From contig OX597821.1 in NCBI GenBank assembly GCA_951406725.2, forward strand, positions 70,370,001 to 70,434,000: DNA of 64,000 nt, read 5' to 3'. This DNA is from Octopus vulgaris (lineage: Eukaryota). Under the pieces are notes generated by a model. It saw only the letters and a list, made by a program, of their open reading frames with translations, did no database searches and was not told the DNA's origin. Positions 38,252 to 64,000 of this stretch are shown here, piece by piece. Numbering within the stretch: position 1 is the first letter of the stretch; every line of letters starts with the position of its first letter. A program made the position numbers and the translations under genes.

Positions 38252-38321
38252 CATATATATATGAATATATATATACATATGTGTATATATATATATACAT
38301 ATATATATGAATATATATATA

Positions 38322-38710: not shown

Positions 38711-38726
38711 CATATATAAACATATG

Positions 38727-38772
<46 letters not shown>

Positions 38773-41309: not shown

Positions 41310-42662
41310 CAGAGTGGTTGGCATTAGGAAGGGCATCCAGCTGTAGAAACTCGGCCAGATCAGATTGGAGTCTGGTGCAGCCATCTGGTTCATTAGACCT
41401 CAGTCAAATTGTCCAACCCATGCTAGCATGGAAAGCAGACGTTAAATGATGATGATGTAAATCGACTTAACTTGCTTCTCATTACATTCACTCTTTTACT
41501 TGTTTTAGTCATTTGAATGCAGCCATGCTGGAGCACCGCCTTTAGTCAAACAAATAGACCCCTGGACTTATTGTTTATAAGCCTAGTACTTATTCTATCA
41601 GTATCTTTTGTCGAGCTGCTAAGTTATAGGGTTGAAAACACACCAACATCAGCTATCAAGCAATGGTGTGGGGGACAAACAGACATACACACACACACAC
41701 ACACATATATGCAATGGGCTTCTTTCAGTTTCCGTCTACCAAATCCACTCAGAAAGCTTTGGTCAGCCTGAGGCTATAGTAGAAGACACTTGCCCAATGT
41801 GCCACGCAGTGGGACCGAACCCAGAAGAATGTTGTTGGGAAGCAAGCTTCTTACCACACAGCCACTACTATGCCTATGGCACCTGTGCCACTGGTATGTA
41901 AAACCACCAATTACGCTCTTGGCGTTAGAAAGAGCATCCAGCCATAGAAAACCATTCCAAATCAGATTGGATCCTGGCATGCCAGCCCAGTCAAACCGTC
42001 CAACACATGCCAGCATGGACAATGGACATTAAATGATGATATGTATACGACAGGCTTCTTTCAGTTTCCGTCTACCAAATCCACTCACAAGGCTTTGGTC
42101 AGTTTGAGGCTATAGCAGAAGAAACTTGCCCAAGGTGCCACACATACAACACAGTCACATCTGTACCTATGAAATGTTATCAGCAGGCAGCGATGGGAAT
42201 TGAACCCATACCTCTCAGAGACAAGCTGAGTATTCTACCACTAAGCTAAAAATCCCACTACGTGTAGATTCAGATTATATGTTATATGCAAGGCAGCGAG
42301 CTGGTAGAAACATTCAAATTCCGCTGAGATCAACTTTGCCTTTCATCCTTTCTGGGTCAATAAAGTAAGTAGCAGTTATGTACTGGGGTTGATTTAATCG
42401 CCTGACCCCCACCGCCAAATTTTGTGCCTTGTGCCTAGAGTAAGAAAGACTATGTTAAAAAAACACAAAAATCAACAGTAACCCATTCCACATATTTCTA
42501 TATAGTGGCTGTATGGGGAGAAGCTTACTTTCCAACCACATGGTTATGGGTTCAGTCCCACTGCATGGCACCATGGGCAGGTGTCTTCTACTATAGCCTA
42601 GGGCCAACCAAAGACTTGAGGAAATTTGGTAGATGGAAACTGAAAGAAGCTTATTGTATATG

Positions 42663-42716
<54 letters not shown>

Positions 42717-42865
42717 GATGTTTGTGTGTCTATATCTGTCCCCCTACCATCGCTTGACAACTGATGTTGGTGTGTTTATATCCCTGTAACTGGGGTCGAT
42801 TTGTTTGACTAATGGTGGTGCTCCAGCATGGACGCAATCAAACAACTGAAACAAGTAAAAGAGTA
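41310..42865. mobile_element. SINE cluster (duplicate of 8615-10165)
   Basis: Same order and orientation of elements. Confidence 0.75.
42186..42256 (-). pseudogene. tRNA-like pseudogene (duplicate)
   Basis: Copy of 9501-9571. Confidence 0.6.
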
Positions 42866-44703
42866 TATACACTCATTTTCTATGCCTAGTTAGGTTATTC
42901 TACATTCATTTTATTTTGAGATTCTCTAAGCACTGCTTCAGCATGTCCAGAGAAGTTTATGCTTCACTGAAGAAATCCAATATGATAGAAATATGTCTTG
43001 AGTTGTCTCCCACTTGCTGAAATGATTAAAATATTATCAACTATTGAACCAATGTCCTTCCCTTCTATTTGATTTATTCAATTAGATTCTACTTTCTTTC
43101 TTCATTAGATGCATCCATTCTTATAACAAATATGGCAAAAACCTGGGTGGGTGTGACCACTTATCTAACATAACATCGCATATGAAATACATTTTCCATA
43201 AAATCACCCACAAAATGGCGTATAATAACATCATCATAACATAGTATTTAGCTAATTGCTTCAAGACAGAGCAGCTAAATGTCCCTCAAATCACATCATA
43301 ATTTTAAATAAATGGGAAGGACACATTTGATTATTTAGTTGTAGAGACACAGAAAAATATAAGAAATGTCACAGCTGGATTGCTGAGTTTCAACTAAAAT
43401 AACATAACAACTGTTAAGATGCTGTGATATTATCTCAAATTAGTAAGATACGTAATTTATAAGGCGGTCAGTTGGCAAAATACCATCATTACATTCTGAG
43501 TTCAAATACAGCTGGGATCGGCATTGCTTTTCAAATTCTACCAAGGTGAACTTTGCCTTTCATCCATTTTGAAGTAGATTAAATAATCACCAGTTGAGCA
43601 CTGGTATTGATGTAATTGACTCCATCCTCACCCCCGAATTGTAGGCCTAGTGTCAAAATTTGAAACTAATATATATATGTAGTTATATATATATAAGGGG
43701 GCAGGTGTGGATGCATGTTAAGAATCTTGCTTCCCTATTATGTGGTCTTGGGTTCAATAGCTCTTGAAAAGGTTGCAAGACAATGAAAATTTTAGTAAAA
43801 AGTAAATAAGTAAATGAGTGGAAATCAGACCGATGAGTGTGTCAAATTAATAAGACACTAAAAGCAAATGACTCACCCCCAGACACAATAAAATAAGTTT
43901 CAACACATAAAGAATCTTGCAAACCAAATACTAAAAACAAAATATATGTATATATATATATCATTATCATCATCATCATTTAACGTCCGCTTTCCATGCT
44001 AGCATGGGTTGGACGATTTGACTGAGGTCTGGCGAACCAGACTCCAATCTGATCTGGCAGAGTTTCTACAGCTGGATGTCCTTCCTAATGCCAACCGCTC
44101 CGAGAGTGTAGTGGGTGCTTTTACGTGCCACCGGCATGAGGGCCAGTTTGGTGGTACTGGCAATGGCCACGCTCAAATGGTGCTTTTTACGTGCCACCTG
44201 CACAGGAGCCAGTCCAGTGGCACTGGCAACGACCTCGCTTGAATGTTTCACATGCCACCAGCACAAGTGCTAGTAAAGCGACGCCTTACTAGCACTATAT
44301 ATATATAGGTAGGTACAATAAATTCAGGGTGAATACTTGATAAGTGTAAGCACCTGTATATGCCAGTTAGTAGCAAAGGTGAGAGGGTATATGCATCAAA
44401 TGAAATAAAAAATAGAACACAAAGGATGTTGCTGTTTCAAGCTTTATACAACAACCTAATTTTACATCAATGTATAATCAACATAACAGATGGTTTAAAG
44501 CCCTCTTCAGCTGCATAGAATTGCTATACGAAAGACTTCCATCACATTATGAAAATGTACATTTTGTATTATCTATAATGGTTGGTATATTGAGTTGCAC
44601 TGAGAAAGTTTGTAAATCTTCATAATCAAATAGGTATATAGGGTATCATTGGACTTCAAAAATCCGTCCATACTCTATCATCAGTCAACATATATATATA
44701 TAT

Positions 44704-44998
44704 ATCATCATCATCGTTTAACGTCCGTTTTCCGCGCTAGCACGGGTTGGACGGTTTCGACCGGGGTCTGGGGAGCTCGGGACTGCCCCAGGCTCCAATC
44801 TAGTCTGGCAGTGTTTCTACAGCTGGATGCCCTTCCTAACGCCAACCACTCCGCGAGTGTAGTGGGTGTTTTTACGTGCCACCTGCACAGGTGCCAGAGG
44901 GGTCTGGCATCGGCCACGTTCGGATGGTGCTTTTTATAGAAATATAGGGGAGCACCAGTGGGGAGGGGTGGTTCAGAGAAATGATGACAGGTTCTAGA
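44704..44998 (-). mobile_element. Copy-specific (GAT)n-tailed SINE inserted in an (AT)n tract
   Basis: CpG-rich element absent from the paralogous sites at ~11990 and ~60790. Confidence 0.8.
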
Positions 44999-45033
<35 letters not shown>

Positions 45034-45035
45034 GA

Positions 45036-45123
<88 letters not shown>

Positions 45124-45199
45124 ATACACACAGATAAGTAAATAATCATTAAAATTTATTTAAATCTGAAATTATGCATTCAAATTAATTATTAATTAT

Positions 45200-45900
45200 A
45201 ATAATGTAAATATCTTATATTTAGTAGAGATGCCCTTTGCATTTTTCGATTCAAGGATCCTATAAGACATTCTACCGATCAGATGATGAATGTACTCTTG
45301 GAGAATTTCTTGCCAAGTTTCATGCAGTAATCTCAAAAGATCTGGCTTTGAGAATGCTTTGCTGTTCTTTTTATGAAGTGTCCTGTCCATTATGCCCCAG
45401 AGATGTTCAATCAGGTTCATACCCGGTGACTGGCTTGGCCATAGAAGCTTTTTAATGCCATTCTTTTCCAACGAATCTTGGCTCTTGCTAGCCATGTAAC
45501 AAGGAGCCCCATCTTCAATAAATACAGAATCGTCTGGTTGGCAGCAACTTTTTAATGCCAATTTCTTGATCAAAGAGTCTCTAGACCCATTCCCGACCAC
45601 TGTCAGAAAATACAGCAAATTTGGACTATTCAGAGAATATGATAGCGTCCTAAAGTGCTAGTGGCCACTCCATCATCTCCTGGCCTGATCCTTCCTCCAA
45701 TTGGCATTGGATGGTTGAAGAAGTTGCTTCCTTCTTGCTGCTCTTCCATTGTAGCCAAGTTTGTGGAGATATCTGACAGCAGTTCTGGGACAGATATGAA
45801 CTTGTTCTGCTATGTTAAATGTCTTGCAATGAGATTCATCCTCCACATTTCACTTAATAAAGCAAAGGAACCTGTCCGAGGTCCCTGGTCAACCTAAGCA
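45200..45900 (-). mobile_element. Decayed Tc1-family (DD34E) transposase (duplicate)
   Basis: ORF 45196-45618 carries the DGAP..WPSQSP..IE motif and ends ..NAKGISTKY. Confidence 0.88.
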
Positions 45901-47742
45901 ACGTTTTGCGTCATGTTTATTTACTTCTGTCACGTTTGTGTGTGTGTATATATATATATTTATACATCATGTATAAAGGAGTGAATGGGAGACTTGGGCA
46001 TACAATTATCTATAAATGATGAGATGGTTCTAAGTTAGAAGTTTTGATTCCAAACTTCCATGACAAATATATACAGCTATGGGGAAGAAATACCTTACTT
46101 GGAAACAAGTGACTGCTGTTGACAGGAAGAGCATCCAATTATAGAAAGTCTGCCTCAGTAAATTCCCCTAAACACATGCAAGCATAGAAAAGGGTACGTT
46201 AATTGATGATGCCTTATCCATAATTACCTTCACAAAATGCAGTTAATATTCTATGAGATTTGGATTATAACAGCTTCTAAAATAACAGAAACTGTTATCT
46301 GCAGATTGGCATCCATCGTGAAAACATTTGCCTAAAACTATTATCATAGAACATGGTGCAAAATTGGATAGAAAGAAGAGACTTCTTCAAAGAATAAGTC
46401 TAGGCTTGGTTTCTTCACTCTTAAAACATGCTACAGTCCATTTCTTGGCGTCATTGAATCCATTTCTTTAAAAGATGTCAAGCATCATGATTCTCCCCCT
46501 CTAAAAGCTTATTTCCTTTGGTCGTATGAGGTGGACGATTCAAAAGAACCTGATGAAACAGGCCAATTCAGGGAACACCAAATTCTAGCTTGACATGGTC
46601 AGTTGCTCTTCCTAATTCCAACCAGATTATAGATTTGAAATCATTTCCTACTCTACTACAAACAGATTTAGTGAAAAGCATTTATTTTTCAGACTCCTTG
46701 TATATACACTTGTATATTTAATCGAGTAAAATAAATTTCAAGAAATAGATAAAAACAAACAAAATAATTATTATAAAAATAATGTTTTATTTACATGTTT
46801 GGTAAAGTTTATTTACAAGGTGAAATATATACTAAAATATATTTTATACTTATATGAATATATATATATATAGAAAAGAATATTGACATGTCTGCTCATA
46901 TTTACATATTTTAGTGCATATTAAATAATTACAAGTAGAATTTTTTTACATATACATGCAAACACATGCATATATAGAGGGGTGTCAAATATTCATGATG
47001 TAAAACAGTTCTGAAAATATATGTGAAAAATAAAATTTATCAATTAAAACAGTGTATGTATATATATTTTATCAAAAGATCCATCATTATTTACAGATAT
47101 AAATTCATGCATAAAGTTTAAAATGATATGGAATTAATATATACATATACATACAAGTAAATTTATTTACAAGTTGAGACTTTTTAAATTTATTTATAAA
47201 AAATATAACCTACCAAAATGAAATTACATATAGATATGGAATTGATGTGACAATATTTACAAATATATATACGTATATTTATGTGAATAAACAGAACAAT
47301 GAGGCAAGGAGATACAGACATTATGATAAATACAAAAGATATTAAATGAATATATACACATCATCTATATAAGCTTTGTGATGCGGATAGTTTTAAAATG
47401 TTCTCCATTTTAAAAATATATCTACATATAAAAAGAACCAAATCACACTTGGAATATAGGAAATATAAATTCTTGTAGTGTAGTCTAATAATCCTTGTTG
47501 CATTAGATTGTTGTAGGAAGAGGAGCACAATTCGAAAAGAGGTGCAACAAGTGAATCAGTGCTATTCTGAGGAATCACACAACCCACTAGAAATGACAGG
47601 TAAATTCCTCAGCAAAACAAATTCTACCATTATACAAATAGGAAGAACACTTTAGTCTATATTCCTCTTGATATCTAAAATGACAGCTTCCTTTCACCAT
47701 TGAACTGTAGAGTCAGGATTTAGCCAGGATTAAACGCCTGAA

Positions 47743-50700
47743 TCAATTATTATGTCGGTCCTCAGCACATATTTCATGGTAAGTCTGAAATAGAAAATAA
47801 AATACTCTTAGATATTATTTATTGATAATCTTACATATTTCATATATCACACATCATAATATGATCAGATTAAACAGATGCAATTTATCATAAAACATCT
47901 AAGCACACATTCATTTATTTAACAGGGTAGTTAATGACAGTTATTAATTTCACCTTAATTATTCCTAATTAATTGCTAATATAAGAAGAAGATCAGACAT
48001 TAGAGGAAAGAAGGATTGAGTCAATGACATCACCCACACAAATTAACTGCTAATTATTTTAATCACTCTGGGAAAAAATAAAATGTTAAAGCAGGGTCCA
48101 ACAAGTTTACACTTGATTAATAAAATAGGAATAATAAAATAGAAATAATAAAAAAAAGAAAGACTTACCTTTCCATCTATATCAATGGCATCATTCAACT
48201 GCCATTCACCATCTTCATGATTGAAGAATTCAGTAAACTTTTCCTTACACACCAAACATACCTGTTGAACATGAAATCAGAAGGGATTAGAGAAGATTGT
48301 TTCAGCATTAAAAAAAACCCAGAGAAATGATAAGAGATTTATGGCCAGGATGATTTATGTGTCTGTAAATTCATATTAATTGAGTTGAACAATAACTTGG
48401 AATTGACTAATCTATAGAAATATCTGAAATAAATTATACCAATTACTAAAAGAGGAAATCGCCCAGGTATTTGTGGAGAGGAATTTACTTGTCGCACTCC
48501 TTATTCTAATGCTAGACATGAACTGATATAATTCTGGAAGGTGATGATGTACACAATCATGTGTAACTTGGAATTGCAATAAGTGAAAGACATCAAGATT
48601 GGCTAAAATAAGCTAAAGAATAAAAGTGCCAGAGGTAAGTGTCAGAAATGAACAGAGTCTTTTAATCCTGGGAATATGGCCATACCGGAGTATATCCATC
48701 AATGTATGTGACCAATCACCTCCACACCATTATGTACTTCATCCTGGCACATTGAATATATACAATGTTTTCACTGAACAGCTAAGTGAGAGGACACAGG
48801 TATAAACACATAAATATTACAGTACTTACTGCATAAATACTTATAATATTTCACAATATTTCTATGAATTCCTACAATATTAAATACAGGTTTGTATTTA
48901 TTTATAATTAGAATATATTTTAACATTAAAATATTTAGATTTCAAGCAACACATTTAAAAGTAAAACAACAATTTAAAGGAGAACAAACTAGAAATAAAA
49001 CTAGAAACGGATATACTTACATCATTTCCAGAATGTTTTGTCGGTCCTGTAATATTCTTTTTCTTATTCTGTTGGTGTATTCTTAGTTGAAGTTCAAACG
49101 GGTTTTCTGGAAAATAACCATAATAATAATCACATTAAAACACATAAAAAACGCCACGAAACAAATCAAAATATTACAACACAATTTCTTATTTTGGCCT
49201 GTAGACAATATACAACAACCAAAATAAGAGTATATTACTGACCAAACATTTTTATAATTCCTAGATTTACCTTCAGCATAATCTTCTTGCAGGTACCAGT
49301 GCCTGTGTTTGGAATAGTTTCTGTGTTTTGCAAAAGAGTTTTCCCTGAAATGTGCATCCATGTGATCGTTATCAATACTGGATCTCCTATCACCACAAAT
49401 CGAACATTGTTTCCCAGAGTAAAGTTTGTGGACGAGTGACTGAGAGACGCTGAAAGAGAAAATAATGTCGTTTAGTCAAGACTGAGAATATGTTTCATGC
49501 AAATAGAGATAAATAAATATATTAATTATGATGTGGATTAAGAAAGATTATAATTGAAAGAAAGATGAAATGAACTTACGTTGTGAAGTTTGTTGTATCA
49601 AAATTTGGTAAACTATTCCTCATCTTCTGTTGAGATACGGAAGGGTACATTGGTGGGAGGCTGGACTTCACTTTCAGCTCATTACCGTGTTCAAGTTTAT
49701 ACAGCTTCCATTTTGTTTGATTGGTGTTAACTTCCATCTTTGATTCGTTGTAATCTTTCATTGGTTCATTCTGAAATATAAGGTGAACGAAATTGTTTAT
49801 TAAAGACATCATACATATACAAGGGAAAGTGGGGGAAATGTGTGCGTGAAACTATCTGGGATCTCAATTCGCATTATTTTCCTTTGTTTATAATCGCATC
49901 CATCCTCATTGACACAACTGAAAATATATTTACATAAAAATATCCAGATGATTGAATAGGCAATGTGGGGTTTATAAATTCGTTAATTGACCAAATTACC
50001 AACGTATTAAAGGACCATTTCGTCCTTATTTACCTTTACTCTGAATAACTAATAAGCTAGCCACCTCCTTGTGAACAGAAAAGAATGAGATTTCAGCTAG
50101 AAATCCAACAAAGTAAGAACAATTCAAATATTTTGCTGTTCACCAAGAGATATAAAGAGTTTGTTAACTGTTATCGCTAACTTTTATAATATTCAATCTA
50201 ATTAACACTTTTAAAATTAATATAATACAATCGCATAGATTTATAATTTGAAAAAAAAAAATAAAGAAATAACAACATAAACATATTTACTTACATGGAA
50301 TGCTTTTACATCGCAAATCTCTCCATTCTGCTTATTTTTGAAAAAATCTTCCACATAATGTACTTTTAAATTACAAGTGTTGTCCTTAATTTTGTCTACG
50401 AGAGATTTAAAGCGAATTGTCGATTTTATCTTCAACTCGTTGCCATATTTCGCTTTATAATCTTTCCATTTTACTCGATTATTCTCTGATTTCCTTTCTT
50501 TTTCTTCACTTTTGTATTCTTGATTATTCTGAAAATATAGAAATAAAATCCAATAACGTATTAAAGAAACGATGAACTTGTGTCAGACATTTGAAATCTC
50601 AGAAACATTCCTATGAAAATACGAAAACATAAAAAAAACAAAAAAAATGGAGCAAGAACGGATTAAATATAATGATTGTGAAATTACCTGAACATTGTTT

Positions 50701-51324
50701 ACATCCGTTTCCATTTCAAGAGTACCTGAAGCATCAGGTTGGCCATATTGTTTATTTAATGTTGATAATCTCTGTCCATCTTGTACATGATTGCCGTTAA
50801 ATTCTGAAAATATAGAAACGTTAATTAATTTAATAACAGGAAATAATTTACGTATTAAACAAAGACTAACAATAGAAATCATGTATTTAAAGAGTAAAAT
50901 TATTAGCAAAGTACTTACCGTGTGTACTTCCATCAGGAGCCTGGAGTACTTTGTTTTGTTGAACAGCAGGTGGAATTGTTTGATATGAGTCCATAGACAC
51001 TATTGGGGATTGAAGCATTGAATTTGAATTGGTGGTGGTTGATTGCGATAAAAGCCATGGTTGCTTTTCATTTTGTCGTTGATAACGGCTTCTTGTATAC
51101 TGTGCATAATGCGATTGCTGCAAATTCCGATGTTGAAGATATCTTCTGCTGCCGTTTCCAAAGCCAGATAGGCTACGATGCCTTTGTAAGCAATAAGGCT
51201 GCCAACGGTTATTTCTGTAACGATGGTAGTTGTTAAAGTAGGTACCCGTGTTCGATACTTGATACTCTGGCTGGTTTTCTTTCCCTTCTCCTTTCCAAAT
51301 GTACCTGCTGTTATTTCGGTTCAT
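47743..51324 (-). CDS. PCF11: PCF11-like zinc-finger protein, copy E (8 exons, 448 aa)
   Basis: Exons (minus strand): 51324-50919, 50803-50688, 50528-50295, 49770-49580, 49449-49271, 49106-49021, 48261-48169, 47784-47743. Canonical splice sites, exon lengths identical to copy A, all Cys/His ligands retained. Confidence 0.85.
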
Positions 51325-52681
51325 TTCCTTGGCTGCTACTTTACAACGGAATTTAATATATGGCAATGTTATACTGAATAAACCAACCGAAAATGCTGCC
51401 CGTGTTTAATGTCTACAAATAAAACAGTTGTATCTCTCGCGAAAGTGTTTCGATCTTGGTCTGAAGACGCAAAGTTTTGGCTGTTTTTATTTACCTGTGA
51501 ATAAAAAAGTAAATTAAAATTTGCGCAAAAACTTCTCATCCAATCAGAAGCCAGATAAATGTCATGTGATCTCACCAGTATTTTCAAAGCAATCACGTGT
51601 CACGCAGCAGAAACATTTATCAATTACTACAACACTCCCATGTGATGACAACAATAATAACAACAACAACGACTCACCACCACCGCCGCCACTACTACTA
51701 CTACTACTGCTACTACTACTATTACTATGCATTGATAACAAAACCCATAAGAAATTCCAAATTATTCCACGATATATATTTTAACTATTTTTCCAGATAA
51801 TACAGTTCTATATTTAAGAGATGAGGAATTATGTACATTATTTACATTTGACGGATAATTGTCCACACCTGACGAGCTAGCTTTTGATTGAGTTTCTCTA
51901 TATGTCTCCATTGAAGTCCAATGTTGGCTCCGTACCTATTACATTACATTATTCTCCTTAAAATATCTTTTTCGAGAATATCTGGAAAATACATCATTTA
52001 CATTTGACAGACATTTGTCCTCATCTTAAATATAGAACCGTGTAATGTAATAGGTACGGAGCCAACATTGGACTTCAATGGAGACATACAGAGAAACTTA
52101 ATCAAAAGCTAGCTCGTCAGGTGTGGACAATTATCCGTCAAATGTAAATTAATGTAAATAACGTAGATAATTCCTCATCTCTTAAATATAGGACTGTATT
52201 ATCTGGAAAAATAGTTAAAATATATATCGTGGAATAATTTGGAATTTCTTATGGGTTTTGTTATCAATGCATAGTAACAGTAGTAGTAGCAGTAGTAGTA
52301 GTAGTAGTAGTAGTAACGGTGGTGGTGGTGAGTCGTTGTTGTTGTTATTTTTGTTGTCATCGCATGGGAGTGTTGTAGTAATTGATAAAAGTTTCTGCTG
52401 CCTGACATGTGATTGCTTTGAAAATACTGATGAGATCACATGACATTTATCTGGCTTCTGATTGGATGAGAAGTTTGCGCGCAAATTTTAATTTACTTTT
52501 TTATTCACAGGTAAATAAAAACAGCCAACACTTTGCGTCTTCAGACCATGGTTCGCAACACTTTCGCGAGAGATACAATTGTTTTATTTGTAGACATTAA
52601 ACACGGGCAGCATTTTCGGTTGGTTTATTCAGTATAACATTGCCGTATATTACATTCCGTTGTAAAGTAGCAGCCAAGGAA
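51325..52681. promoter_or_regulatory. Divergent (head-to-head) promoter region of copies E and F
   Basis: Two inverted promoter copies; start codons 51324(-) and 52682(+) are ~1.36 kb apart. Confidence 0.55.
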
Positions 52682-55600
52682 ATGAACCGAAATAACAGCA
52701 GGTACATTTGGAAAGGAGAAGGGAAAGAAAACCAGCCAGAGTATCAAGTATCGGACACGGATACCTACTTTAACAACTACCATCGTTACAGAAATAACCG
52801 TTGGCAGCCATATTGCTTACAAGGACATCGTAGCCTATCTGGCTTTGGAAATGGCAGCAGAAGATATCTTCAACATCGGAATTTGCAGCAATCGCATTAT
52901 GCACAGTATACAAGAAGCCGTTATCAACGACAAAATGAAAAGCAACCATGGCTTTTATCGCAATCAACCACCACTAATTCCAATTCAATGCTTCAATCCC
53001 CAATAGTGTCTATGGACTCATATCATACAATTCCGCCTGTTGTTCAACAAAACAAGGTACTCCAGGCTCCTGATGGAAGTACACACGGTAAGTACTTTGC
53101 TAATAATTTTACTCTTTAAATACATGATTTCTATTGTTAATCTTTGTTTAATACGTAAATTCTTTCCTGTTAATAAATTAATTAACGTTTCTATATTTTC
53201 AGAATTTAACGGCTATCATGTACAAGATGGCCGACCTGATGCTTCAGGTACTCTTGAAATGGAAACGGATGTAAACAATGTTCAGGTAATTTCACAATCA
53301 TTATATTTAATCCGTTCTTGCTGCATTTTTTTGTTTTGTTTTATGTTATCGTATTTTCATAGGAATGTTTCTGAGATTTCAAAAGTCTGACACAAGTTCA
53401 TCGTTTCTTTAATACGTTATTGGATTTTATTTCTATATTTTCAGAATAATCAAGAATACAAAAGTGAAGAAAAAGAAAGGAAATCAGAGAATAATCGAGT
53501 AAAATGGAAAAATTATAAAGCGAAATATGGCGACGAGTTGAAGATAAAATCGACAATTCGCTTTAAATCTCTCGTAGACAAAATTAAGGACAACACTTGT
53601 AATTTAAAAGTACATTATGTGGAAGATCGTTTCAAAAATAACCAGAATGGAGAGATTTACGATGTAAAAGCATTCCATGTAAGTAAATATTATGTTTATG
53701 TTGTTATTTCTCAATTTTTTATTCAAATTATAAATCTATGCGATTGTATTATATTAATTTTAAAAGTGTTAATTAGATTGAATATATTATAAAAGTTAGC
53801 GATAACAGTTAACAAACTCTTTATATCTCTTGGTGAACAGCAAAATATTTGAATTGTTCTTACTTTGTTGCGTTTCTAGCTGAAATTTCATTGTTTTTCT
53901 GTTCACAAGGAGGTAGCTAGCTTATAAGTTATTCAGAGTAAAGGTAAATAAGGACGAAATGGTCCTTTAATACGTTGGTAATGTGGTCAATTAACGAATT
54001 TATAATCGCCACATTGCCTATTCAATCATCTGGATATTTTTATGTAAATATATTTTCAGTTATTATGTCAATGTTGATTGATGTGATTATAAACAAAGGA
54101 AAATAATGCGAATTGAGATCCCAGATAGTTTCACGCACACACACACACATTTCCCCCACTTTCCCTTGTATATGTATGATGTCTTTAATAAACAATTTCG
54201 TTCACCTTATATTTCAGAATGAACCAATGAAAGATTACAACGAATCAAAGATGGAAGTTAACACCAATCAAACAAAATGGAAGCTGTATAAACTTAAACA
54301 CGGTAATGAGCTGAAAGTGAAGTGCAGCCTCACGCCAATGTACCCTTCCGTATCTCAACAGAAGATGAGGAATATTTTACCAAATTTTGATACAACAAAC
54401 TTCACAACGTAAGTTCATTTCATCTTTCTTTCAATTATAATCTTTCTTAATCCACATCATAATTAACATATTTATTTATCTCTATTTGCATGAAACATAT
54501 TCTCAATCTTGACTAAACGACATTATTTTCTCTTTCAGTGTCTCTCAGTCACTCGTCCACAAACTTTACTCTGGGAAACAATGTTCGATTTGTGGTGATA
54601 GGAGATCCAGTATTGATAACGATCACATGGATGCACATTTCAGGGAAAACTCTTTTGCAAAGCACAGAAACTATTCCAAACACAGGCACTGGTACCTGCA
54701 AGAAGATTATGCTGAAGGTAAATCTAGGAATTATAAAAATGTTTGGTCAGTAATATTCTCTTATTTTTGTTGTTGTATATTGTCTACAGGCCAAAATAAG
54801 AAATTGTGTTGTAATATTTTGATTTGTCTCGTGGCGTTTTTTATGTGTTTTAATGTGATTATTATTATGGTTATTTTCCAGAAAACCCGTTTGAACTTCA
54901 ACTAAGAAAACACCAACAGAATAAGAAAAAGAATATTACAGGACCGACAAAACATTCTGGCAATGATGTAAGTATATCCGTTTCTAGTTTTATTTCTAGT
55001 TTGTTCTCCTCTAAGTTGTTGTTTTACTTTTAAATGTGTTACTTGAAATTTAAATATTCTAATGTTAAAATATATTCTAATTATAAATAAATACACACCT
55101 GTATTTAATATTGTAGGAATTCATAGAAATATTGTGAAATGTTATAAGTATTTATGCAGTAAGTACTGTAATATTTATGTGTTTATGCCTGTGTCCTCTC
55201 ACTTAGCTGTTCAGTGAAAACATTGTATATATTCAAAGTACCAGGATGAAGTACATATTGGTGTGGAGGTGATTGGTCACATATATTGATGGATATACTC
55301 CGGTATGGCCATATTCCCAGGATTAAAAGACTCTGTTCATTTCTGACACTTACCTCTGGCACTTTTATTCTTTAGCTTATTTTAGCCAATCTTGATGTCT
55401 TTCACTTATTGCAATTCCAAGTTACACATGATTGTGTATATCATCACCTTCCAGAATTATATCAGTCCATGTCTAGCATTACAATAAGGAGTGCGACAAG
55501 TAAATTCCTCTCCACAAATACCTGGGCCAATTCCTCTTTTAGTAATTGGTATAATTTATTTCAGATATTTCTATAGATTAGTGAATTCCAAGTTATTGTT

Positions 55601-56182
55601 CAACTCGGTTAATATGAATTTGCAGACACATAATTCATCCTGGCCGTAAATCTCTTATCATTTCTCTGTTTTTATTTTTTAATGCTGAAACAATCTTCTC
55701 TAATCTCTTCTGATTTCATGTTCAACAGGTATGTTTTGTGTGTAAAGAAAAGTTTACTGAATTCTTCAATCATGAAGATGGTGAATGGCAGTTGAATGAT
55801 GCCATTGATATAGATGGAAACGTAAGTCTTTCTTTTTTTTATTATTTCTATTTCCTATTTTATTAATCAAGTGAAAACTTGTTGGATCCTGCTTTAACAT
55901 TTTATTTTTTCCCAGAGTGATTAAAATAATTAGCAGTTAATTTGTGTGGGTGATGTCATTGACTCAATTCTTCTTTCCTCTAATTTCTCATCTTCTTCTT
56001 ATATTAAGAATAATTAAGGTGAAATTAATATCTGTCTTTAACTACCCTGTTAAATAAATGAATGTGTGCTTAGATGTTTTATGATAAATTGCATCTGTTT
56101 AATCTGATCATATCTAAGAGTATTTTATTTTCTATTTCAGACTTACCATGAAATATGTGTTGAGGACCGACATAATGATTGA
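52682..56182 (+). CDS. PCF11: PCF11-like zinc-finger protein, copy F (8 exons, 437 aa; in-frame 33-nt deletion in exon 2)
   Basis: Exons 52682-53087, 53203-53285 (83 nt vs 116), 53445-53678, 54218-54408, 54539-54717, 54882-54967, 55729-55821, 56141-56182. Frame preserved; CSIC/H/H and CFVC/HEIC ligands intact. Confidence 0.85.
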
Positions 56183-57629
56183 TGCAGGCGTTTAACCCTG
56201 GCTAAATCCTGACTCTACAGTTCAATGGTAAAAGGAAGCTGTCATTTTAGATATCAAGAGGCATATAGACTAATGTGTTCTTCCTATTTGTATAATGGTA
56301 GAATTTGTTTTGCTGGGGAATTTACCTGTCATTTCTAGTGGGATTGTGTGATTCCTCAGAATAGCACTGATTCACTTGTTGCACCTCTTTTCGAATTGTG
56401 CTCCTCTTCCTACAACAATCTAAAGCAACAAGGATTATTAGACTACACTGCAAGAACTTATATTTCCTATATTCCAAGTGTGATTTGGTTCTTTTTATAT
56501 GTAGATATATTTTTAAAATGGAGAGCATTATAAAACTATCCGTATCGCAAAGCTTATATAGATGAGTTGTATATATTCATTTAATGCCTTTTGTATTTAT
56601 ATAATGTGTGTATCTCCTTGCCTCATGGTTCTGTTTATTCTCATAAACATACGTATATATATTTGTAAATATTGTCACATCAATTCCATATCTATATGTA
56701 ATTTCATTTTGGTAGGTTATATTTTTTATAAATAAATTTAAAAAGTCTCAACTTGTAAATAAATTGACTTGTATGTATATGTATATATTAATTCCATATC
56801 ATTTTAAAACTTTATGCATGAATTTATATCTGTAAATAATGATGGATCTTTTGATAAAATATATATACATACAGTGTTTCAATCCATAAATTTTAATTTT
56901 CACATATATTTTCAGAACTGTTTTACCTCATGAATATTTTACACCCCTCTATATATGCGTGTGTTTGTATGTATATGTAAAAAAATTCTACTTGTAATTA
57001 TTTAATATGCACTAAAATATGTAAATATGAGCAGACATGTCAATATTCTTTTCTATATATATATTAATATAAGTATAAAATATATTTTAGTATATATTTC
57101 ACCTTGTAAATAAACTTTACCAAACATGTAAATAAAACATTATTTTTACAATAATTATTTTGTTTGTTTTTATCTATTTCTTGAAATTTTTTTTATTTGA
57201 TTCAATATACAAGTGTATATGAAAGGCATCTGAAAAATAATGCTTTTCTCTAAATCTGTTTGCAGTAGAGTAGGAAATGATTTCAAATCTGTAATATGGT
57301 TGGAATTAGGAAGGGCAACTGACCATATCAAGCTAGTATTTGGTGTTCCCTGAAGTGGCCTGTTTCCTCAGGTTCTTTTGAATCGTCCACCTCATACGAC
57401 CAAAGGAAATAAGCTTTCAGAGGGCAAGAATCATGATGCTTTATATCTTTTAAAGACATGGATTCAGTGAGGTCAAAAAATGGACTGTACCATGTTCTAA
57501 GAGTGAAGAAACCAAGCCTAGACTTGTTCTTTGAAGAAATCTCTTCTTTCTATCCAATGATGCCAGCACCTGCTTCAATAGCAATGAATTTGATTTGTAT
57601 TGATTTGTCACCAGTATTCTATCTAAATC

Positions 57630-58360
57630 TTTGTTAGTGTGATTGTATGTCATAGAAAGGAGTCTATATAAGCTGCTGGATGCTGGGGTTGCATCTAGAG
57701 ATGTGTTAGGGAAACAAATCAAACGAGCTACCTGTATTTTGCTAATATGTAGTATTTATTGTCAATGTGATTGTATGTTATAGAAATGAGCCTATATAAG
57801 CTGCTCGATGCTGGGTTTGCAACTGAAGATGTTTTAGGGAAACGAATCAAACGAGCTATCCGTATTTTGCTAATAAGTAGTATTTTTTGTTAGTTTGATT
57901 GTATGTTATATAAAAATGAGCCTAAATAAGGTGCTGGATGCTGGGGTTGCACCTGGACATGTTTTAGGGAAATGAATGAAACGAGCTACCTGTATTTTGC
58001 TAATGCGTAGTATATTTTGCTGGTGTGATTTTATGTTATAGAAATGAGCCTATATAAGGTGCCAGATGCTGGGGTTGCACCTGGAGATGTGTTAGGCAAA
58101 CGAATCAAACAAGCTACCTGTATTTTGCTAAGGAGTAGTATTTTTTGCTAGTGTGATCGTATGTTATAGAAATGAGCCTATATAAGCTGCTGGATGCTGG
58201 TGTTTTACCTGAAGAGGTTTTAGGGAAATGAATCAAACGAGCTACCTGTATTTTGCTAATGTGATTGTATGTTATGGAAATGAGCCTAAATAAGGTGCAG
58301 GATGCTGGTGTTGCACCTGGAGATGATTTAGGCAAACGAATCAAGTATTTCTATTTTGTT
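57630..58360 (-). repeat. 128-bp satellite, ~6 units
   Basis: Reverse-complement units; one has a small internal deletion near 58260. Confidence 0.9.
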
Positions 58361-59625
58361 AAAGTGTGTTTTTTATGTTATTCTTAACTTACACTGATTG
58401 AAACAGACACTGGTTGTGTCAGAGTCACTGACTCAAACATCCACAAGCACAAATATATACTCGATAGGCTTCCTCACAGTTTCTTCTTACCAAATTCTCT
58501 AACAACACATTGATCAGGGATTAAATATACAAGTGTATATGAAAGGAGTCTGAAAATAATGCTTTTCACTAAATCTGTTTGTAGTAGAGTAGGAATTGAT
58601 TTCAAATCTGCAATGTGGCTGGAATTAGGACGGGCAACTGACCATATCAAGCTAGAATTTGGTGTTCCCTGAAGTGGCCTGTTTCATCAGTTCTTTTCAA
58701 TCAACCACCTCATACGACCAAAGGAAATAAGCTTTCAGAGGGTGAGGATCATGATGCTTGACATCTTTTAAAGACATGGATTCAATGAAGTCAAGAAATG
58801 GACTGTAGCATGTTCTAAGATTGAAGAAATCAAGCCTAGACTTGTTCTTTGAAGAAGTCTCTTCTTTGTATCCAATTTTGCACCATGTTCTATGGTAATA
58901 GTTTTAGACAAATGTCTTCACAATGGATACCAATCTGTAGATAACAGTTTCTGTTTTTTAGTGGCTTTTATAATCCAAATCTCATAGAATATTAACTGCA
59001 TTTTGTGAAGGTAATTATGGATAAGGCATCATCATCATCAATTAACGTACCCTTTTCTATGCTTGTATGTGTTTAGGGGAATTTACTGAGGCAGACTTTC
59101 TATAATTGGATGCTCTTCTTTTCAACAGCAATCACCTGTTTCCAAGTAAGGTAATTCTTCCCCATAGCTGGATATTCTTGTCATGGAAGTCTGGAATCCC
59201 CGCCACCACACACTCAGTGACACTGTGAAGTGGTCAAAACTGAAATTCTTTCTTTTTTTCCTTGGAGTCAATATTCTGTCCAGCAGACCAAAAAAAATTC
59301 TTTTCTTCTTCTTCCCTCTCCCTTCCCCTCTTTCTCTTTAGCACCCATCCCAGATACAAATACACATGCACACATACACACATGTTCTCTCTCTCACTTT
59401 CTCCTCATCCATCACCCTCTTGTACTGTCTTATATTCCTCCCACCACTACAAAACTCTATAAAATGGTCAAATCTCACACAGGAACTTAGTTTGATTTGA
59501 AAACCCCACTAGAATGGGAGAAAGCGCTAATGATCTAAGTGATATGATATATATATAAAAAAATGTAATATACAAATAAATATCTGGAAATATAAACCAT
59601 CCGATCTTCTGAGTACCACATTTCT

Positions 59626-59662
<37 letters not shown>

Positions 59663-59719
59663 CACACACACACACACACAAACGTGACAGAAGTAAATAG
59701 ACATGACGCAAAACGTTAT

Positions 59720-60680
59720 TTCATGTTTATTTTAGCTTGAAAATGTTCATATTTGTTATGAATGGATATTTTTAAGCTTCATGTTCTATATGTGGCTGGT
59801 TAATCATTCCATGTACAAAAGGAGCCTTGGAATTGTCCAAATTTCAAAGAAGCTGGATTGTAAGTCAAAATGAAGGTGGACTTAGTCAGTGTAATGTCGT
59901 AGAAAACCTTGCGATCCCACATTCTACATTCTACATTCTGCTTAGGTTGACCAGGGACCTCTGACCAGTTCCTTTGCTTTATTAAGTGAAATGTGGAGGA
60001 TGATCCTCATTGCAAGACCTCTGACATAGAACAAGTTCATATCTGTCCCAGAACTGCTGTCAGATATCTCCACAAACTTGGCTGCAATGGAAGAGCAGCA
60101 AGAAGGAAGCAACTTCTTCAACCATCCAATACCAATGGCCAGTGAGATGATGGAGTGGCCACTAGCACTTTGGGACACTATCATATTCTCTGAATAGTCC
60201 AAATTTGCTGTATTTTCTGACAGTGGTTGGGAATGGGTCTAGAGACTCTTTGATCAAGAAATTGGCATGAAAAAGTTGCTGCCAACCAGACGATTCTGTA
60301 TTTATGGAAGATGGGGCTCCTTGTTACATGGCTAGAAAGAGCCAAGATTCGTTGGAAAAGAATGGCATTAAAAAGCTTCCATGGCCAAGCCAGTCACCGG
60401 GTATGAACCTGATTGAACATCTCTGGGGCATAATAGACAGGACACTTCATAAAGAGAACAACAAAGCATTCTCAAAGCCAGATCTTTTGAGATTACTGCA
60501 TGAAACTTGGCAAGAAATTCTCCAAGAGTACATTCATCATCTGATCAGTAGAATGTCTTATAGGATCCTTGAATCGAAAAATGCAAAGGGCATCTCTACT
60601 AAATATAAGATATTTACATTATTATATGTAATTAATTTGAATGCCTAATTTCAGATTTAAATAAATTTTAATGATTATAA
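59720..60680 (+). mobile_element. Decayed Tc1-family transposon, inverted and longer copy
   Basis: ORF 60304-60648 DD34E tail. Also retains the N-terminal HTH remnant FQRSWIVSQNEGGLSQCNVVENLAIPHST (~59843-59930), absent from the other two copies. Confidence 0.88.
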
Positions 60681-60716
60681 GGGTGTCTATTTACTTCTGT
60701 CTTTTCTGTGTGTATA

Positions 60717-60770
<54 letters not shown>

Positions 60771-62624
60771 GGTATTTATATATATATATATATATATATA
60801 TTGACTGATGATAGAGTATGGACGGATTGTTGAAGTCCAATGATACCCTATAACTATTTGATTATGAAGATTTACAAACTTTCTCAGTGAAACTCAATAT
60901 ACCAACCATTATAGATAATACAAAATGTACATTTTCATAATGTGATGGAAGTCTTTTGTATAGCAATTGCATGCGGCTGAAGAGGGCTTTAAACCATCTG
61001 TTATGTCGATTATACATTGATGTAAAAATAGGTTGTTGTATAAAGCTTGAAACAGCGACATCCTTTGTGTTCTGTTTTTTATTTCATTTGATGCATATAC
61101 CCTCTCACCTCTGCTACTAACTGGCATATACAGGTGCTTACACTTATCAAGTATTCACCCTGAATTTATTGAACCTACCTATATATATATAGTGCTAGTA
61201 AGGCGTCGCTTTTTAGCACTTGTGCTGGTGGCATGTAAAACATTTGAGCGAGGTCGTCGCCAGTGCCACTGGACTGGCTCCTGTGCAGGTGGCACGTAAA
61301 AAGCACCATTTTAGCATGGCCATTGCCAGTACCACCAAACTGGCCCTCATGCCGGTGGCATGTAAATGCACCCACTACTCTCTCGAAGTGGTTGGCATTA
61401 GGAAGGGCATCCAGCTGTAGAAACTCTGCCAGATCAGATTGGAGTCTGGTTCGCCAGACCTCAGTCAAATCGTCCAACCCATGCTAGCATGGAAAGTGGA
61501 CGTTAAATGATGATAATGATATATATATATACATATATATTGTTTTTAGTATTTGGTTTGCAAGATTCTTTATGTGTTGAAACTTATTTTATTGTGTCTG
61601 GGGGTGAGTCATTTGCTTTTAGTGTCTTATTAATTTGACACACTCAGTGGTCTGATTTCCACTCATTTACTTATTTATTTTTTACTAAAATTTTCATTGT
61701 GTCTTGCAACCTTTTCAAGAGCTGTTGAACCCAAGATCACATAATAGGGAAGCAAGATTCTTAACATGCATCCACACCTGCCCCCTTTACGCTACAAATT
61801 ATACTAACTACACATATATATTAGTTTCAAATTTTGACACTAGGCCTACAATTCGGGGGTGAGGGTGGAGTCAATTACATCAATACCAGTGCTCAACTGG
61901 TGGTTATTTAATCCACTTCAAAATGGATGAAAGGCAAAGTTACCCTTGGTAGAATTTGAAAAGCAATGCCAACCCCAGCTGTATTTGAACTCAGAATGTA
62001 ATGATGGTATTTTGCCAACTGACCGCTTTATAAGTAATGTATTTTACTAATTTGAAATAACATCACAGCATCTTAACAGTTGTTATGTTATTTTAGTTGA
62101 AACTCAGCAATCCAGCTGTGACATTTCTCATATTTTTCTGTGTCTCTACAACTAAATAATCAAATGTGTCCTTCCCATTTATTTAAAATTATGATGTGAT
62201 TTGAGGGACATTTAGCTGCTATATCTTGAAGCTATTAGCTAAATACTATTTTATGTTGATGTTATTATACACCATTTTGTGGGTGATTTTATGGAAAATG
62301 TATTTCATATGCGATGTTATGTTAGATAAGTGGTAGCACCCACCCAGTATTTTGCCATATTTGTTATAAGAGTGGATGCATCTAATGAAGAAAGAAAATA
62401 GAATCTAATTGAATAAATCAAATAGATGGGAAGAACATTGGTTCAATAGTTGATGATATTTTAATCATTTCAGCAAGTGGGAGACAACTCAAGACATATT
62501 TCTATCATATTGGATTTATTCAGTGAAGCATAAACTTCCCTGGACATGCTGAAGCAGTGCTTAGAGAATCTCAAAATAAAATGAATGTAGAATAACCTAA
62601 CTAGGCATAGAAAATGAGTGTATA

Positions 62625-62831
62625 TACTCTTTTACTTGTTTCAGTTGTTTGACTGCGGCCATGCTGGAGCACCACCATTAGTCGAACAAATCGCCCCCAG
62701 GACTTATTCTTTGTAAGCCAAGCACCTATTCTATCGGTCTCTTGTGCCAAACTGCTAAGTTACAGGGATATAAACACACCAACATCGGTTGTCAAGCGAT
62801 GGTAGGGGGACAGACATATACGCACAAACAT

Positions 62832-62920
<89 letters not shown>

Positions 62921-64000
62921 CATATACAATAAGCTTCTTTCAGTTTCCATCTACCAAATTTTCTCACAAGTCTTTGGTTGGCCCTAGGCTATAGTAGAAA
63001 CACCTGCCCATGGTGCCATGCAGTGGGACTGAACCCATAACCATGTGGTTGGAAAGTAAGCTTCTCACCATACAGCCACTATATGGAAATATGTGGGATG
63101 GGTTACTGTTGATTTTTGTGTTTTTTTAAGATAATCTTTCTTACTGTGGGGGTCAGTAAATGATTAAATCAACCCCAGTACATAACTGCTACTTACTTTA
63201 TTGACCCCGAAAGGATGAAAGGCAGAGTTGATCTCAGCGGAATTTGAATGTTTCTACCTGCTCGCTGCCTTGCATATGACATATAATCTGAATCTACATG
63301 TAGTGGGATGTTTAGCTTAGTGGTAGAATACTCAGCTTATCTCTGAGAGGTATGGGTTCAATTCCCATCGCTGCCTGCTGATAACATTTCATAGGCACAG
63401 ATGTGACTGTGTTGTATGTGTGGCACCTTAGGCAAGTTTCTTCTGCTATAGCCTCAAACTGACCAAAGCCTTGTGAGTGGATTTGGTAGACGGAAACTGA
63501 AAGAAGCCTGTCGTATATATGTCATCATTTAATGTCCATTGTCCATGCTGGCATGTGTTGGACGGTTTGACTGGGCTGGCATGCCAGGATCCAATCTGAT
63601 TTGGAATGGTTTTCTATGGCTGGATGCTCTTTCTAACGCCAAGAGCGTAATTGGTGGTTTTACATACCAGCGGCACAGGTGCCATAGCCATAGTAGTGGC
63701 TGTGTGGTAAGAAGCTTGCTTCCCAACAACATACTTCTGGGTTCGGTCCCACTGCGTGGCACATTGGGCAAGTGTCTTCTACTATAGCCTCAGGCTGACC
63801 AAAGCCTTCTGAGTGGATTTGGTAGACGGAAACTGAAAGAAGCCCATTGCATATATGTGTGTGTGTGTGTATGTCTGTTTGTCCCCCACACCATTGCTTG
63901 ACCGCTGATGTTAGTGTGTTTTCAACCCCATAACTTAGCAGCTCGACAAAAGATACTGATAGAATAAGTACTAGGCTTATAAACAATAAGTCCAGGGGTC
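62625..64000. mobile_element. SINE cluster (inverted duplicate)
   Basis: Reverse complement of ~8875-10165. Confidence 0.75.
63305..63375 (+). pseudogene. tRNA-like pseudogene (inverted duplicate)
   Basis: Same element; the anticodon loop reads cttatct here. Confidence 0.6.

What the first reader, a model, noticed from the sequence alone, without database searches (positions are those of the whole stretch)
41560..64000. Gene-bearing palindrome with >10-kb arms and only a 92-bp spacer
Seen: copies E and F are head-to-head; the left arm ends ..cgtacctattacattaca (51948) and the right arm starts tgtaatgtaataggtacg (52041). Established: such ampliconic palindromes typify testis-gene families on sex chromosomes and are prone to cruciform formation and gene conversion. 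Inference: an ampliconic locus with a shared bidirectional promoter. The arms differ by many substitutions and indels, so it is not a simple fold-back read artefact.
Basis: partly seen in the sequence, partly recalled or inferred. Interest (0 to 1): 0.75.

Follow-up and report, generated by a model that had tools for sequence, protein, structure and literature searches.

The report
Old fold-back palindrome of Pcf11 copies
In an octopus genome two intact copies of a shortened RNA 3'-end-processing gene (Pcf11) sit back to back in a 34-kb mirror-image duplication whose halves differ by about 3%; it likely arose by a DNA-copying fold-back and is likely not a sex-chromosome amplicon, so the structure is ordinary, but it points to an expanded gene family of untested function.

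Summary
The palindrome is real and larger than reported: arms of 15.2 kb (36732-51948) and 18.9 kb (52041 to 6.9 kb past the window), a 92-bp spacer, 3.4% substitutions and many indels. Each arm holds an intact 8-exon Pcf11 paralogue with the two C-terminal zinc fingers. It lacks the CID and the third conserved Trp of the Clp1-binding motif. Five intact copies, a frameshifted copy, stubs and two older paralogues cluster here; canonical Pcf11 lies on another contig. Tool labels give Octopus vulgaris.

The spacer is ordinary upstream DNA, also present before three other copies: the mark of a fold-back or template-switch duplication, roughly 4 My old. The amplicon reading fails its tests. Arms are far below 99% identical, and the left gene is closer to a direct-repeat copy (1.8%) than to its partner (2.9%). 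The contig is probably autosomal, and each arm has its own promoter region. Expression and testis bias could not be tested.

The structure is a known kind; the truncated, mildly constrained Pcf11 family (dN/dS about 0.5) is what merits follow-up. The scan earlier noted a Penelope-centred palindrome elsewhere in this genome, but not this locus or family.

The parts
36732..51948 (-). Left arm of the palindrome (15,217 bp): gene E plus 3' distal sequence, read right to left
51949..52040 (.). 92-bp spacer: ancestral upstream sequence of the gene unit; 83-84 of 92 bases equal the same place before copies D, P and Z; 6 fixed differences in its first 18 nt
52041..64000 (+). Right arm; continues to 70907 in window coordinates (18,867 bp in all) and then runs into unique flank
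47743..51324 (-). Gene E coding span, 8 exons, 448 aa, open frame, AG/GT splice sites; CID-less Pcf11 paralogue (public protein P0004; last-exon end approximate)
52682..56182 (+). Gene F coding span, 8 exons (52682-53087, 53203-53285, 53445-53678, 54218-54408, 54539-54717, 54882-54967, 55729-55821, 56141-56182), 437 aa, identical to public protein P0006
54539..54717 (+). F exon 5: first zinc finger (CxxC..HxxxH) and R-x-W of the Clp1-binding motif; third conserved Trp absent
55729..56182 (+). F exons 7-8: second Pcf11 zinc finger (zf_PCFS4 28.6 bits, cut-off 27; Pcf11_C 32.6 bits on the whole protein, cut-off 26.7)
51979..52210 (.). ~220-bp remnant of a very high-copy dispersed repeat (Penelope-like by inference), bounded by the 11-bp direct repeat TATCTGGAAAA; the fold-back turns inside it; its mirror part lies at 51795-51948
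4044..18631 (-). B block: direct-repeat copy of the left arm (distal sequence plus gene B, CDS 18119-14683, 448 aa, intact); shares the left arm's outer junction
18631..18638 (.). Second head-to-head junction (B/C), asymmetric: B breaks inside the same repeat remnant, and C starts in intron 3
   Evidence: seen as a loose end in run X5
18638..22783 (+). Copy C: lacks the promoter region and exons 1-3, frameshifted in exon 5 (pseudogene-like)
22764..31077 (+). Copy D with its full 1.7-kb ancestral upstream region; CDS 25126-28662, 448 aa, intact
31011..33406 (+). Copy P: upstream region, promoter region and only the first ~33 nt of CDS, joined to an inverted satellite array
33404..36714 (-). 128-bp satellite (13 copies, 33404-35069) and A', a 3'-end-only copy (last exon, 3' UTR)
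57630..58344 (+). 128-bp satellite array downstream of F; present in the right arm, absent at the mirror place in the left arm

Best explanation
This is a real 34-kb interrupted palindrome holding two intact, back-to-back copies of a CID-less Pcf11 paralogue; it likely formed a few million years ago when DNA synthesis folded back on itself about 640 bp upstream of the start codon, and its arms have since diverged with little sign of arm-to-arm repair. Inferred steps: (1) a nascent or resected strand in the upstream region of the F lineage annealed to a short imperfect inverted match about 92 nt away and copied the gene and about 19 kb of unit backwards, leaving the loop as the single-copy spacer, with a few altered bases at the seam. 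(2) A second switch at the far end (36731/36732) closed the event. (3) The left arm with that outer junction was later duplicated in direct orientation to give block B, whose own head-to-head junction with C lost about 1.6 kb of one side. (4) Substitutions and indels have since removed most of the cruciform risk. The proteins keep both zinc fingers but lack the CID, the FEGP-type middle and one of three Clp1-contact residues. They are therefore predicted to bind RNA without supporting cleavage, as modulators or competitors of canonical Pcf11 rather than replacements. Each gene would be driven by its own duplicated promoter.
For: Shown here. The spacer equals the upstream DNA of copies D, P and Z (83-84 of 92), so both arm ends map within 92 bp of one unit. 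This matches the single-copy spacer of fold-back duplications (PMC3907307, passages) and ODIRA junctions with repeats within about 100 bp, 2-14 bp long, sometimes with secondary one-arm deletions (PMC10766183, passages). Z has a 6-bp and D a 4-bp inverted match at the seam, and the D sequence's best fold pairs the spacer edges. Distances: E-B 1.80%, E-F 2.94%, F-D 3.25%, E-D 3.58%, Z about 4.6% (4,279 columns); distal arms B-E 2.41%, E-F 3.07% (7,558 columns). No long identical E-F tract (p 0.42). The outer junction is identical in the B and E blocks. Five of six gene-length copies have open frames with AG/GT sites. Changes among them: 31 synonymous and 55 non-synonymous, omega 0.46, or 0.54 after ts/tv correction (p 0.010); 1 coding indel (33 nt, in frame) against 20 intronic ones. 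The parent on C13 has a CID (Pfam 30.7 bits, cut-off 23.9) and shares three intron positions; its CID and middle exons have no match in the 264 kb. The third Trp is kept in 100 of 102 library hits where the motif was found (147 examined) and absent in 7 of 7 octopus paralogues. Human Pcf11 fragments from residue 1123 or 1184 onward are inactive in cleavage; the 1123 fragment binds RNA like the active one, and a fragment from the first zinc finger still binds Clp1 (PMC6239180 section 7).
Against: The inverted microhomology is not above chance (p 0.08-0.57 in three copies) and the ancestral hairpin folds no better than shuffles (z 0.56 and 0.87), so the priming step is inferred. The order of events is only partly resolved: the tree places F with D at 54%, and P is 6% from E and F, so a single triplication with P as first copy does not fit. 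Some exchange among copies did occur: 4 of 5 triplet scans show tracts at p<0.05, including one (54220-56731) where E is relatively F-like, and in one distal 1-kb window E-F (10 differences) are closer than B-E (18). Old, partial E-F conversion is therefore not excluded. Constraint is weak: variable sites are 6.4% in exons against 6.8% in introns, and the zinc-finger part alone is not significant (p 0.11). The junction is bridged in only 1 of 8 runs in the displayed rows. Protein function and expression are untested.
Confidence: 0.72

Rival explanations
1. The high-copy repeat remnant in the upstream region triggered the rearrangements: its own 38-bp inverted pair, or a nick by its element's endonuclease, broke the DNA here, and repair folded back.
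For: Both head-to-head junctions (E/F at 52041, B/C near F-equivalent 52190) break inside the same ~220-bp remnant. The remnant has an internal inverted pair, 38 bp at 82% identity, and an 11-bp flanking direct repeat. Depth is 1e5-1e6 against 1e1-1e2 for the gene. An earlier scan note describes a palindrome centred on such an element elsewhere in this genome (unchecked).
Against: The fold-back did not use the element's own inverted pair: that would centre the palindrome at 52027-52118, not 51949-52040. The seam joins element sequence to unique flank. If B was copied from E, the two junctions are not independent. Rfam found no hammerhead in three outside copies, and their folds were not significant.
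Confidence: 0.25
2. The head-to-head pair came from inversion of one copy inside an older tandem array, not from a fold-back.
For: Tandem head-to-tail copies exist (C, D, P joined through the 128-bp satellite). The E-F distance (2.9%) is close to the general radiation of copies (3.0-3.6%).
Against: An inversion needs two independent breaks that happen to lie 92 bp apart in a ~20-kb unit. It should also leave E's lost upstream DNA at the other end, but the stub there (P) runs past the break and is 6.0% from E.
Confidence: 0.1
3. It is a sex-chromosome-type ampliconic palindrome of a testis gene family, kept alike by arm-to-arm gene conversion, with a shared bidirectional promoter.
For: Arms above 8 kb, a small spacer within the 77 bp-358 kb range of human X palindromes, and a young multicopy lineage-specific family.
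Against: Identity is 96.6% by substitutions and 93.9% with gaps. E is closer to B than to F, and 3 of 79 informative sites unite E and F. Z is chr16 in this species and this is C8. Octopus are ZZ/Z0 with no W reported. Each arm has its own upstream region.
Confidence: 0.05
4. The structure is an assembly artefact (misjoined haplotypes or chimeric reads).
For: The locus is a hard repeat cluster; only one displayed contig bridges the E/F seam, and it may come from the source sample.
Against: The arms differ by 3.4% plus kilobase insertions. Six copies form a consistent set of distances with distinct junctions. The seam has novel bases found in no other copy. The B/C seam appears in run X5. There are no N gaps in the 264 kb.
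Confidence: 0.05

Closest known systems
Fold-back inverted duplications with a single-copy spacer (human; PMC3907307, 12 passages read) and ODIRA inverted junctions (yeast; PMC10766183, 12 passages read)
   Same: Inverted copy joined to the parent through a spacer of parental sequence; ends within about 100 bp as in ODIRA; a neighbouring junction with a one-sided deletion of more than 1 kb.
   Different: Present in a germ-line assembly and a few million years old rather than de novo; much shorter spacer than the human cases (766 bp-70 kb); microhomology not above chance here; partner junction obscured by later events.
Mammalian X/Y ampliconic palindromes (PMC8327919, 10 passages read; 10.1101/800185, search listing only)
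   Same: Arms above 8 kb, protein-coding genes in both arms, small spacer.
   Different: Arms about 96.6% instead of above 99% identical; no sign of ongoing arm-to-arm conversion; probably autosomal; testis bias not tested.
Arabidopsis PCFS1/PCFS5, CID-less Pcf11 paralogues (PMC10839035, 12 passages read)
   Same: Lineage-specific, truncated Pcf11 copies with the zinc-finger end and no CID, beside canonical Pcf11.
   Different: PCFS1/5 are intronless and judged probable pseudogenes. The octopus copies keep three parental intron positions, have a new ~300-residue N-terminus with no Pfam match, are tandemly amplified, and show omega of about 0.5 with five open frames.
Engineered human Pcf11 C-terminal fragments deltaN1123/deltaN1184/deltaN1339 (PMC6239180, abstract and section 7 read)
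   Same: Two zinc fingers around the Clp1-binding region, without CID or FEGP repeats.
   Different: The octopus proteins lack the exon with the third conserved Trp (yeast W489; PMC1761425, 7 passages read), so Clp1 binding may be weaker or lost; this is untested.

Membership tests
Sex-chromosome ampliconic palindrome | Inverted arms longer than 8 kb | tested here: met
   15,217 and 18,867 bp; criterion
Sex-chromosome ampliconic palindrome | Arm-to-arm identity above 99% | tested here: not met
   3.4% substitutions, 93.9% BLAST identity
Sex-chromosome ampliconic palindrome | Arms kept alike by arm-to-arm gene conversion | tested here: not met
   E-B 1.80% against E-F 2.94%; 3 of 79 informative sites unite E and F; run test p 0.42. 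Old partial tracts are not excluded.
Sex-chromosome ampliconic palindrome | Located on a sex chromosome | tested here: inconclusive
   Z is chr16; the window is on C8, 118.9 Mb, while C16 is 58.8 Mb; that contig numbers equal chromosome numbers is inferred; Z primers of another species hit repeats
Sex-chromosome ampliconic palindrome | Testis-biased expression of arm genes | not testable with these tools
   No holder on record as RNA, and tissues are coded
Fold-back / ODIRA-type inverted duplication | Spacer is single-copy parental sequence between the inverted copies | tested here: met
   83-84 of 92 bases equal the upstream DNA of D, P and Z
Fold-back / ODIRA-type inverted duplication | Switch points within about 100 bp (ODIRA) | tested here: met
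   92 bp; criterion
Fold-back / ODIRA-type inverted duplication | Pre-existing short inverted repeat at the spacer edges | tested here: inconclusive
   4-6 exact bp, p 0.08-0.57; fold not better than shuffles
Fold-back / ODIRA-type inverted duplication | Matching second inverted junction giving a triplication | tested here: inconclusive
   The far end is complex (A', satellite, P stub), and P is 6% from E and F
Fold-back / ODIRA-type inverted duplication | Replication origin inside the amplicon | not testable with these tools
   No origin map
Pcf11 (canonical) | N-terminal CID | tested here: not met
   No CID hit in P0001, P0004, P0006; parent CID exons have no tblastn match in the 264 kb
Pcf11 (canonical) | First zinc finger (CxxC..HxxxH) | tested here: met
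   C331, C334, H345, H349 invariant in 20 aligned sequences
Pcf11 (canonical) | Second zinc finger | tested here: met
   Pcf11_C above cut-off; best fold matches 5m9z and 2nax, E about 0.005, prob 1.00
Pcf11 (canonical) | Clp1-binding motif R480/W482/W489 | tested here: not met
   R and the first W are kept; the third Trp and its 43-nt exon are absent in 7 of 7 paralogues but kept in 100 of 102 library hits with the motif
Pcf11 (canonical) | Middle region with FEGP-type repeats needed for cleavage | tested here: not met
   The parent's two long middle exons have no match in the cluster; requirement
Pcf11 (canonical) | Activity in cleavage and termination | not testable with these tools
   Needs biochemistry
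Penelope-like element remnant (centre repeat) | High copy number and flanking direct repeat | tested here: met
Penelope-like element remnant (centre repeat) | Hammerhead ribozyme in fuller copies | tested here: inconclusive
   A motif resembling a hammerhead core (recalled, seen by eye) in L034 and L036; no Rfam match; folds z about -1
Penelope-like element remnant (centre repeat) | Linked RT and GIY-YIG reading frame | not tested
   Not searched

The most novel reading that the evidence does not exclude
Octopuses evolved a family of CID-less Pcf11 proteins that keep the RNA-binding zinc fingers but have dropped polymerase and cleavage functions, and use them as tissue-specific (for example germ-line) competitors that shift poly(A)-site choice and termination; fold-back amplification at a fragile upstream region raised their dose in O. 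vulgaris.
Probability: 0.15. Interest if true: 0.7.

Novelty: new variant of a known kind. Interest (0 to 1): 0.38.

Why it matters
The palindrome is a clear natural record of a fold-back duplication that survived with a 92-bp spacer and diverged instead of being homogenised, a useful contrast to sex-chromosome amplicons but a known kind of event. The gene family matters more. Pcf11 dose sets poly(A)-site choice and termination (recalled), and cleavage-dead C-terminal fragments are known as engineered constructs and as probable plant pseudogenes. A constrained, amplified natural version would give a direct test of whether animals tune 3'-end processing with truncated Pcf11. A full-text search for Pcf11 with Octopus found 0 papers; subscription journals are mostly outside that library.

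Tried and rejected
Expression: no RNA holder listed. X12, guessed to be RNA, gave no spliced joints and covered intronic bases, so it says nothing on expression. Z-linkage by O. bimaculoides Z primers: 5 and 48 scattered hits, no primer pair on one contig, uninformative. CpG-island promoter: o/e 1.04, but 19% of 711 windows reach that, so rejected. Ancestral hairpin energy and microhomology were not above chance. Hammerhead identity of the centre repeat was not confirmed by Rfam or folding. Single-event triplication with P as first copy: rejected, P is too distant. C as a young sister of F from a whole-palindrome duplication: not supported, C-F 3.58% against B-E 1.97%, and C is a B/F mosaic. 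The N-terminal 300 residues have no Pfam family, no usable Atlas hit and pLDDT under 50. The PDB sequence search with exon 5 alone found nothing meaningful. Origin from cephalopod Pcf11: the best tree groups them, but at 76/95 support it is not shown. The first dN/dS run included mis-mapped last codons of E; the figures used come from one search, which drops the last codons. Clp1 binding of the paralogue was not modelled and stays open. Literature: Pcf11 + Octopus 0 papers; octopus/palindrome/tandem duplication 64 papers, none of the 10 listed relevant. Earlier scan notes: none near this place, none by sequence, none on Pcf11 among the 8 shown. No supplements were read; those of the bioRxiv Z-chromosome preprint are closed and could confirm chromosome numbering.
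Full report
Observation. The palindrome is as described at its centre: left arm to 51948, a 92-bp spacer, right arm from 52041. With 100 kb fetched on each side the arms extend to 36732 and 70907 in window coordinates, 15,217 and 18,867 bp, 34 kb in all. Ten chained blocks give 15,134 columns, 506 mismatches (3.4%), 412 gap columns and several arm-specific insertions of 0.3-1.5 kb. The window is G000:C8:70370001-70434000 in a 2.8-Gb genome of 227 contigs; proteins from a contig of the same length are labelled Octopus vulgaris. There are no N gaps in the 264 kb, and no other inverted match of 700 bp or more at 86% or more outside the cluster.

Is it an artefact? The arms differ too much for a read fold-back. 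One displayed contig of run X2 (105 nt, 1 difference) spans the seam, with 30 bases on the arm side, or 39 before the point where ancestral-type contigs begin to match. That is 1 of 8 runs laid, with most pieces not shown, and X2 may be the source sample. The second head-to-head seam (B/C) appears as a loose end in run X5.

The gene. The right-arm gene F has eight coding exons with AG/GT sites and gives 437 aa, identical to a public protein. Its last exons match the second Pcf11 zinc finger in Pfam, PDB sequences and fold. The ligands of the first finger are invariant in a 20-sequence alignment. Canonical Pcf11, with a CID, lies on C13 and shares three intron positions with the paralogues. The paralogues have no match to its CID or middle exons and lack the 43-nt exon with the third conserved Trp of the Clp1-binding motif. 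Of 147 library hits examined, the motif was found in 102 and the Trp kept in 100; it is absent in 7 of 7 octopus paralogues (residues from PMC1761425, passages). The first ~300 residues have no family and are predicted disordered. An unnamed Logan record 68% identical over exon 1 suggests a relative in another genome.

The cluster. From left to right: an old paralogue (+, upstream of the window), Z (-, intact, just upstream), a 3' stub A, B (-, intact), C (+, 5'-truncated and frameshifted), D (+, intact), P (+, 5' stub), a 3' stub A', E (-, intact), F (+, intact), and another old paralogue (+, 78377-82 kb). C, D and P are joined head to tail through a 128-bp satellite. Among the five intact copies there are 31 synonymous and 55 non-synonymous changes (omega 0.46; 0.54 with ts/tv weighting, p 0.010), and one in-frame coding indel against 20 intronic ones. 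Against strong constraint, exons are about as variable as introns (6.4% and 6.8%) and the zinc-finger part alone is not significant (p 0.11).

How the centre formed. The spacer is not new sequence: 83-84 of its 92 bases equal the same place upstream of D, P and Z, with six fixed differences in the first 18 bases. So both arm ends map within 92 bp of one gene unit. This is the signature of a fold-back or template-switch duplication: a single-copy spacer with short inverted matches at its edge (PMC3907307, passages), and repeats of 2-14 bp within about 100 bp, sometimes followed by deletion of one arm (PMC10766183, passages). The inverted match here is 4-6 exact bases and not above chance (p 0.08-0.57), and the ancestral hairpin is no better than shuffles, so the priming step is inferred. 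The turn lies inside a ~220-bp remnant of a very high-copy repeat with an 11-bp flanking direct repeat. I read it as Penelope-like from a recalled hammerhead-like motif in outside copies and from earlier scan notes; Rfam and folding did not confirm this. The B/C seam breaks in the same remnant, but the element's own inverted pair was not the one used.

History. E is sister to B (1.80%, 100% bootstrap), not to F (2.94%); 24 of 79 informative sites unite B and E, 3 unite E and F. The distal arms agree (B-E 2.41%, E-F 3.07%), and B and E share an identical outer junction, so block B was likely copied from the left arm after the palindrome formed. At 0.0036 substitutions per site per million years (PMC13282606, passages) E and F parted roughly 4 My ago; this is a rough figure from another species' rate. 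No pair shows a significant identical run after correction (10 and 15 pairs). Against a clean no-conversion history, 4 of 5 triplet scans show mosaic tracts, one making E relatively F-like, C is B-like near its seam and F-like further out, and one distal kilobase has E and F closest.

X and Y palindromes are defined by arms above 8 kb and above 99% identity, with conversion keeping arms alike (PMC8327919, passages). The identity and conversion tests are not met. The Z of this species is chr16 (10.1101/2024.12.09.627507, passages); this locus is on C8, 118.9 Mb, while C16 is 58.8 Mb. The mapping of contig to chromosome number is inferred, and a primer test failed. The start codons are 1,358 bp apart and each arm has its own copy of the upstream region that single copies also use, so two duplicated promoters are more likely than one shared one; no start-site data exist here. 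Wider spacers and divergence sharply lower inverted-repeat instability in double-stranded DNA (PMC10164571, passages); with a 48-bp perfect stem and a longest identical run of 154 bp cruciform extrusion is unlikely now.

Likely function. Human CF II binds RNA mainly through the two Pcf11 zinc fingers, and C-terminal fragments without the FEGP repeats bind Clp1 but do not cleave (PMC6239180, abstract and section 7). The octopus paralogues have that architecture minus one Clp1-contact residue, so I predict RNA-binding modulators or competitors of canonical Pcf11. The alternative is slow decay, as judged for Arabidopsis PCFS1/PCFS5 (PMC10839035, passages). Expression and binding were not shown.

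Verdict. The palindrome is a known kind of rearrangement; the truncated, amplified Pcf11 family is a new variant of a known kind, with no paper found on it. Interest 0.38.

Noticed in passing
window 31011-36714: Stub P keeps the upstream region and ATG but runs into an inverted satellite and 3'-end copy (A'); if transcribed it would make RNA antisense to the family's last exon and 3' UTR. The D 3' end and A' also form a 2.7-kb, 87% tail-to-tail inverted repeat.
   Followed up: no
window 1-340, 1882-2228, 30045-31030, 33404-35069, 57630-58344: A 128-bp satellite with 2.7-13 copies per array lies downstream of the gene copies and at the C/D, D/P and P/A' joins.
   Followed up: partly
window 45196-45657 (-) and 60271-60648 (+): Decayed DDE transposase fragments (Pfam DDE_3) in both arms; insertion predates the palindrome.
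   Followed up: partly
window 9500-9570, 42193-42248, 63306-63376: Weak Rfam tRNA matches in the three copies of the distal arm, probably tRNA-derived SINE heads.
   Followed up: no
L008/L009 (G000:C8:70343.5-70354.1 kb) and L012 (70448.4-70452.1 kb): Two older paralogues (public proteins P0009 and P0003) flank the cluster on the + strand; both also lack the third Trp. A second-finger exon and a likely last exon of the downstream one exist but are missing from its public model.
   Followed up: partly
L024:7636-9714: Canonical octopus Pcf11 has degenerate repeats resembling FEGP repeats (for example IRFDGP), which PMC6239180 describes as conserved in vertebrates but not in fly, worm or yeast.
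   Followed up: no
window 52363-53700 against run X10: Organism D gives one 1,462-nt unitig with several Z-like alleles, a weak hint of fewer copies in that organism.
   Followed up: no
window 53445-53678 and 54218-54408: Exons 3 and 4 share a short internal repeat (KWK.YK...GNELK.K) with no family match.
   Followed up: partly
L005 (about 55.1-53.2 kb upstream of the window): A ~536-bp tandem repeat with 99.8% identical copies.
   Followed up: no
P0014 cluster: Several Myotis records are C-terminal Pcf11 fragments of 300-789 aa, possibly another set of truncated copies or broken models.
   Followed up: no
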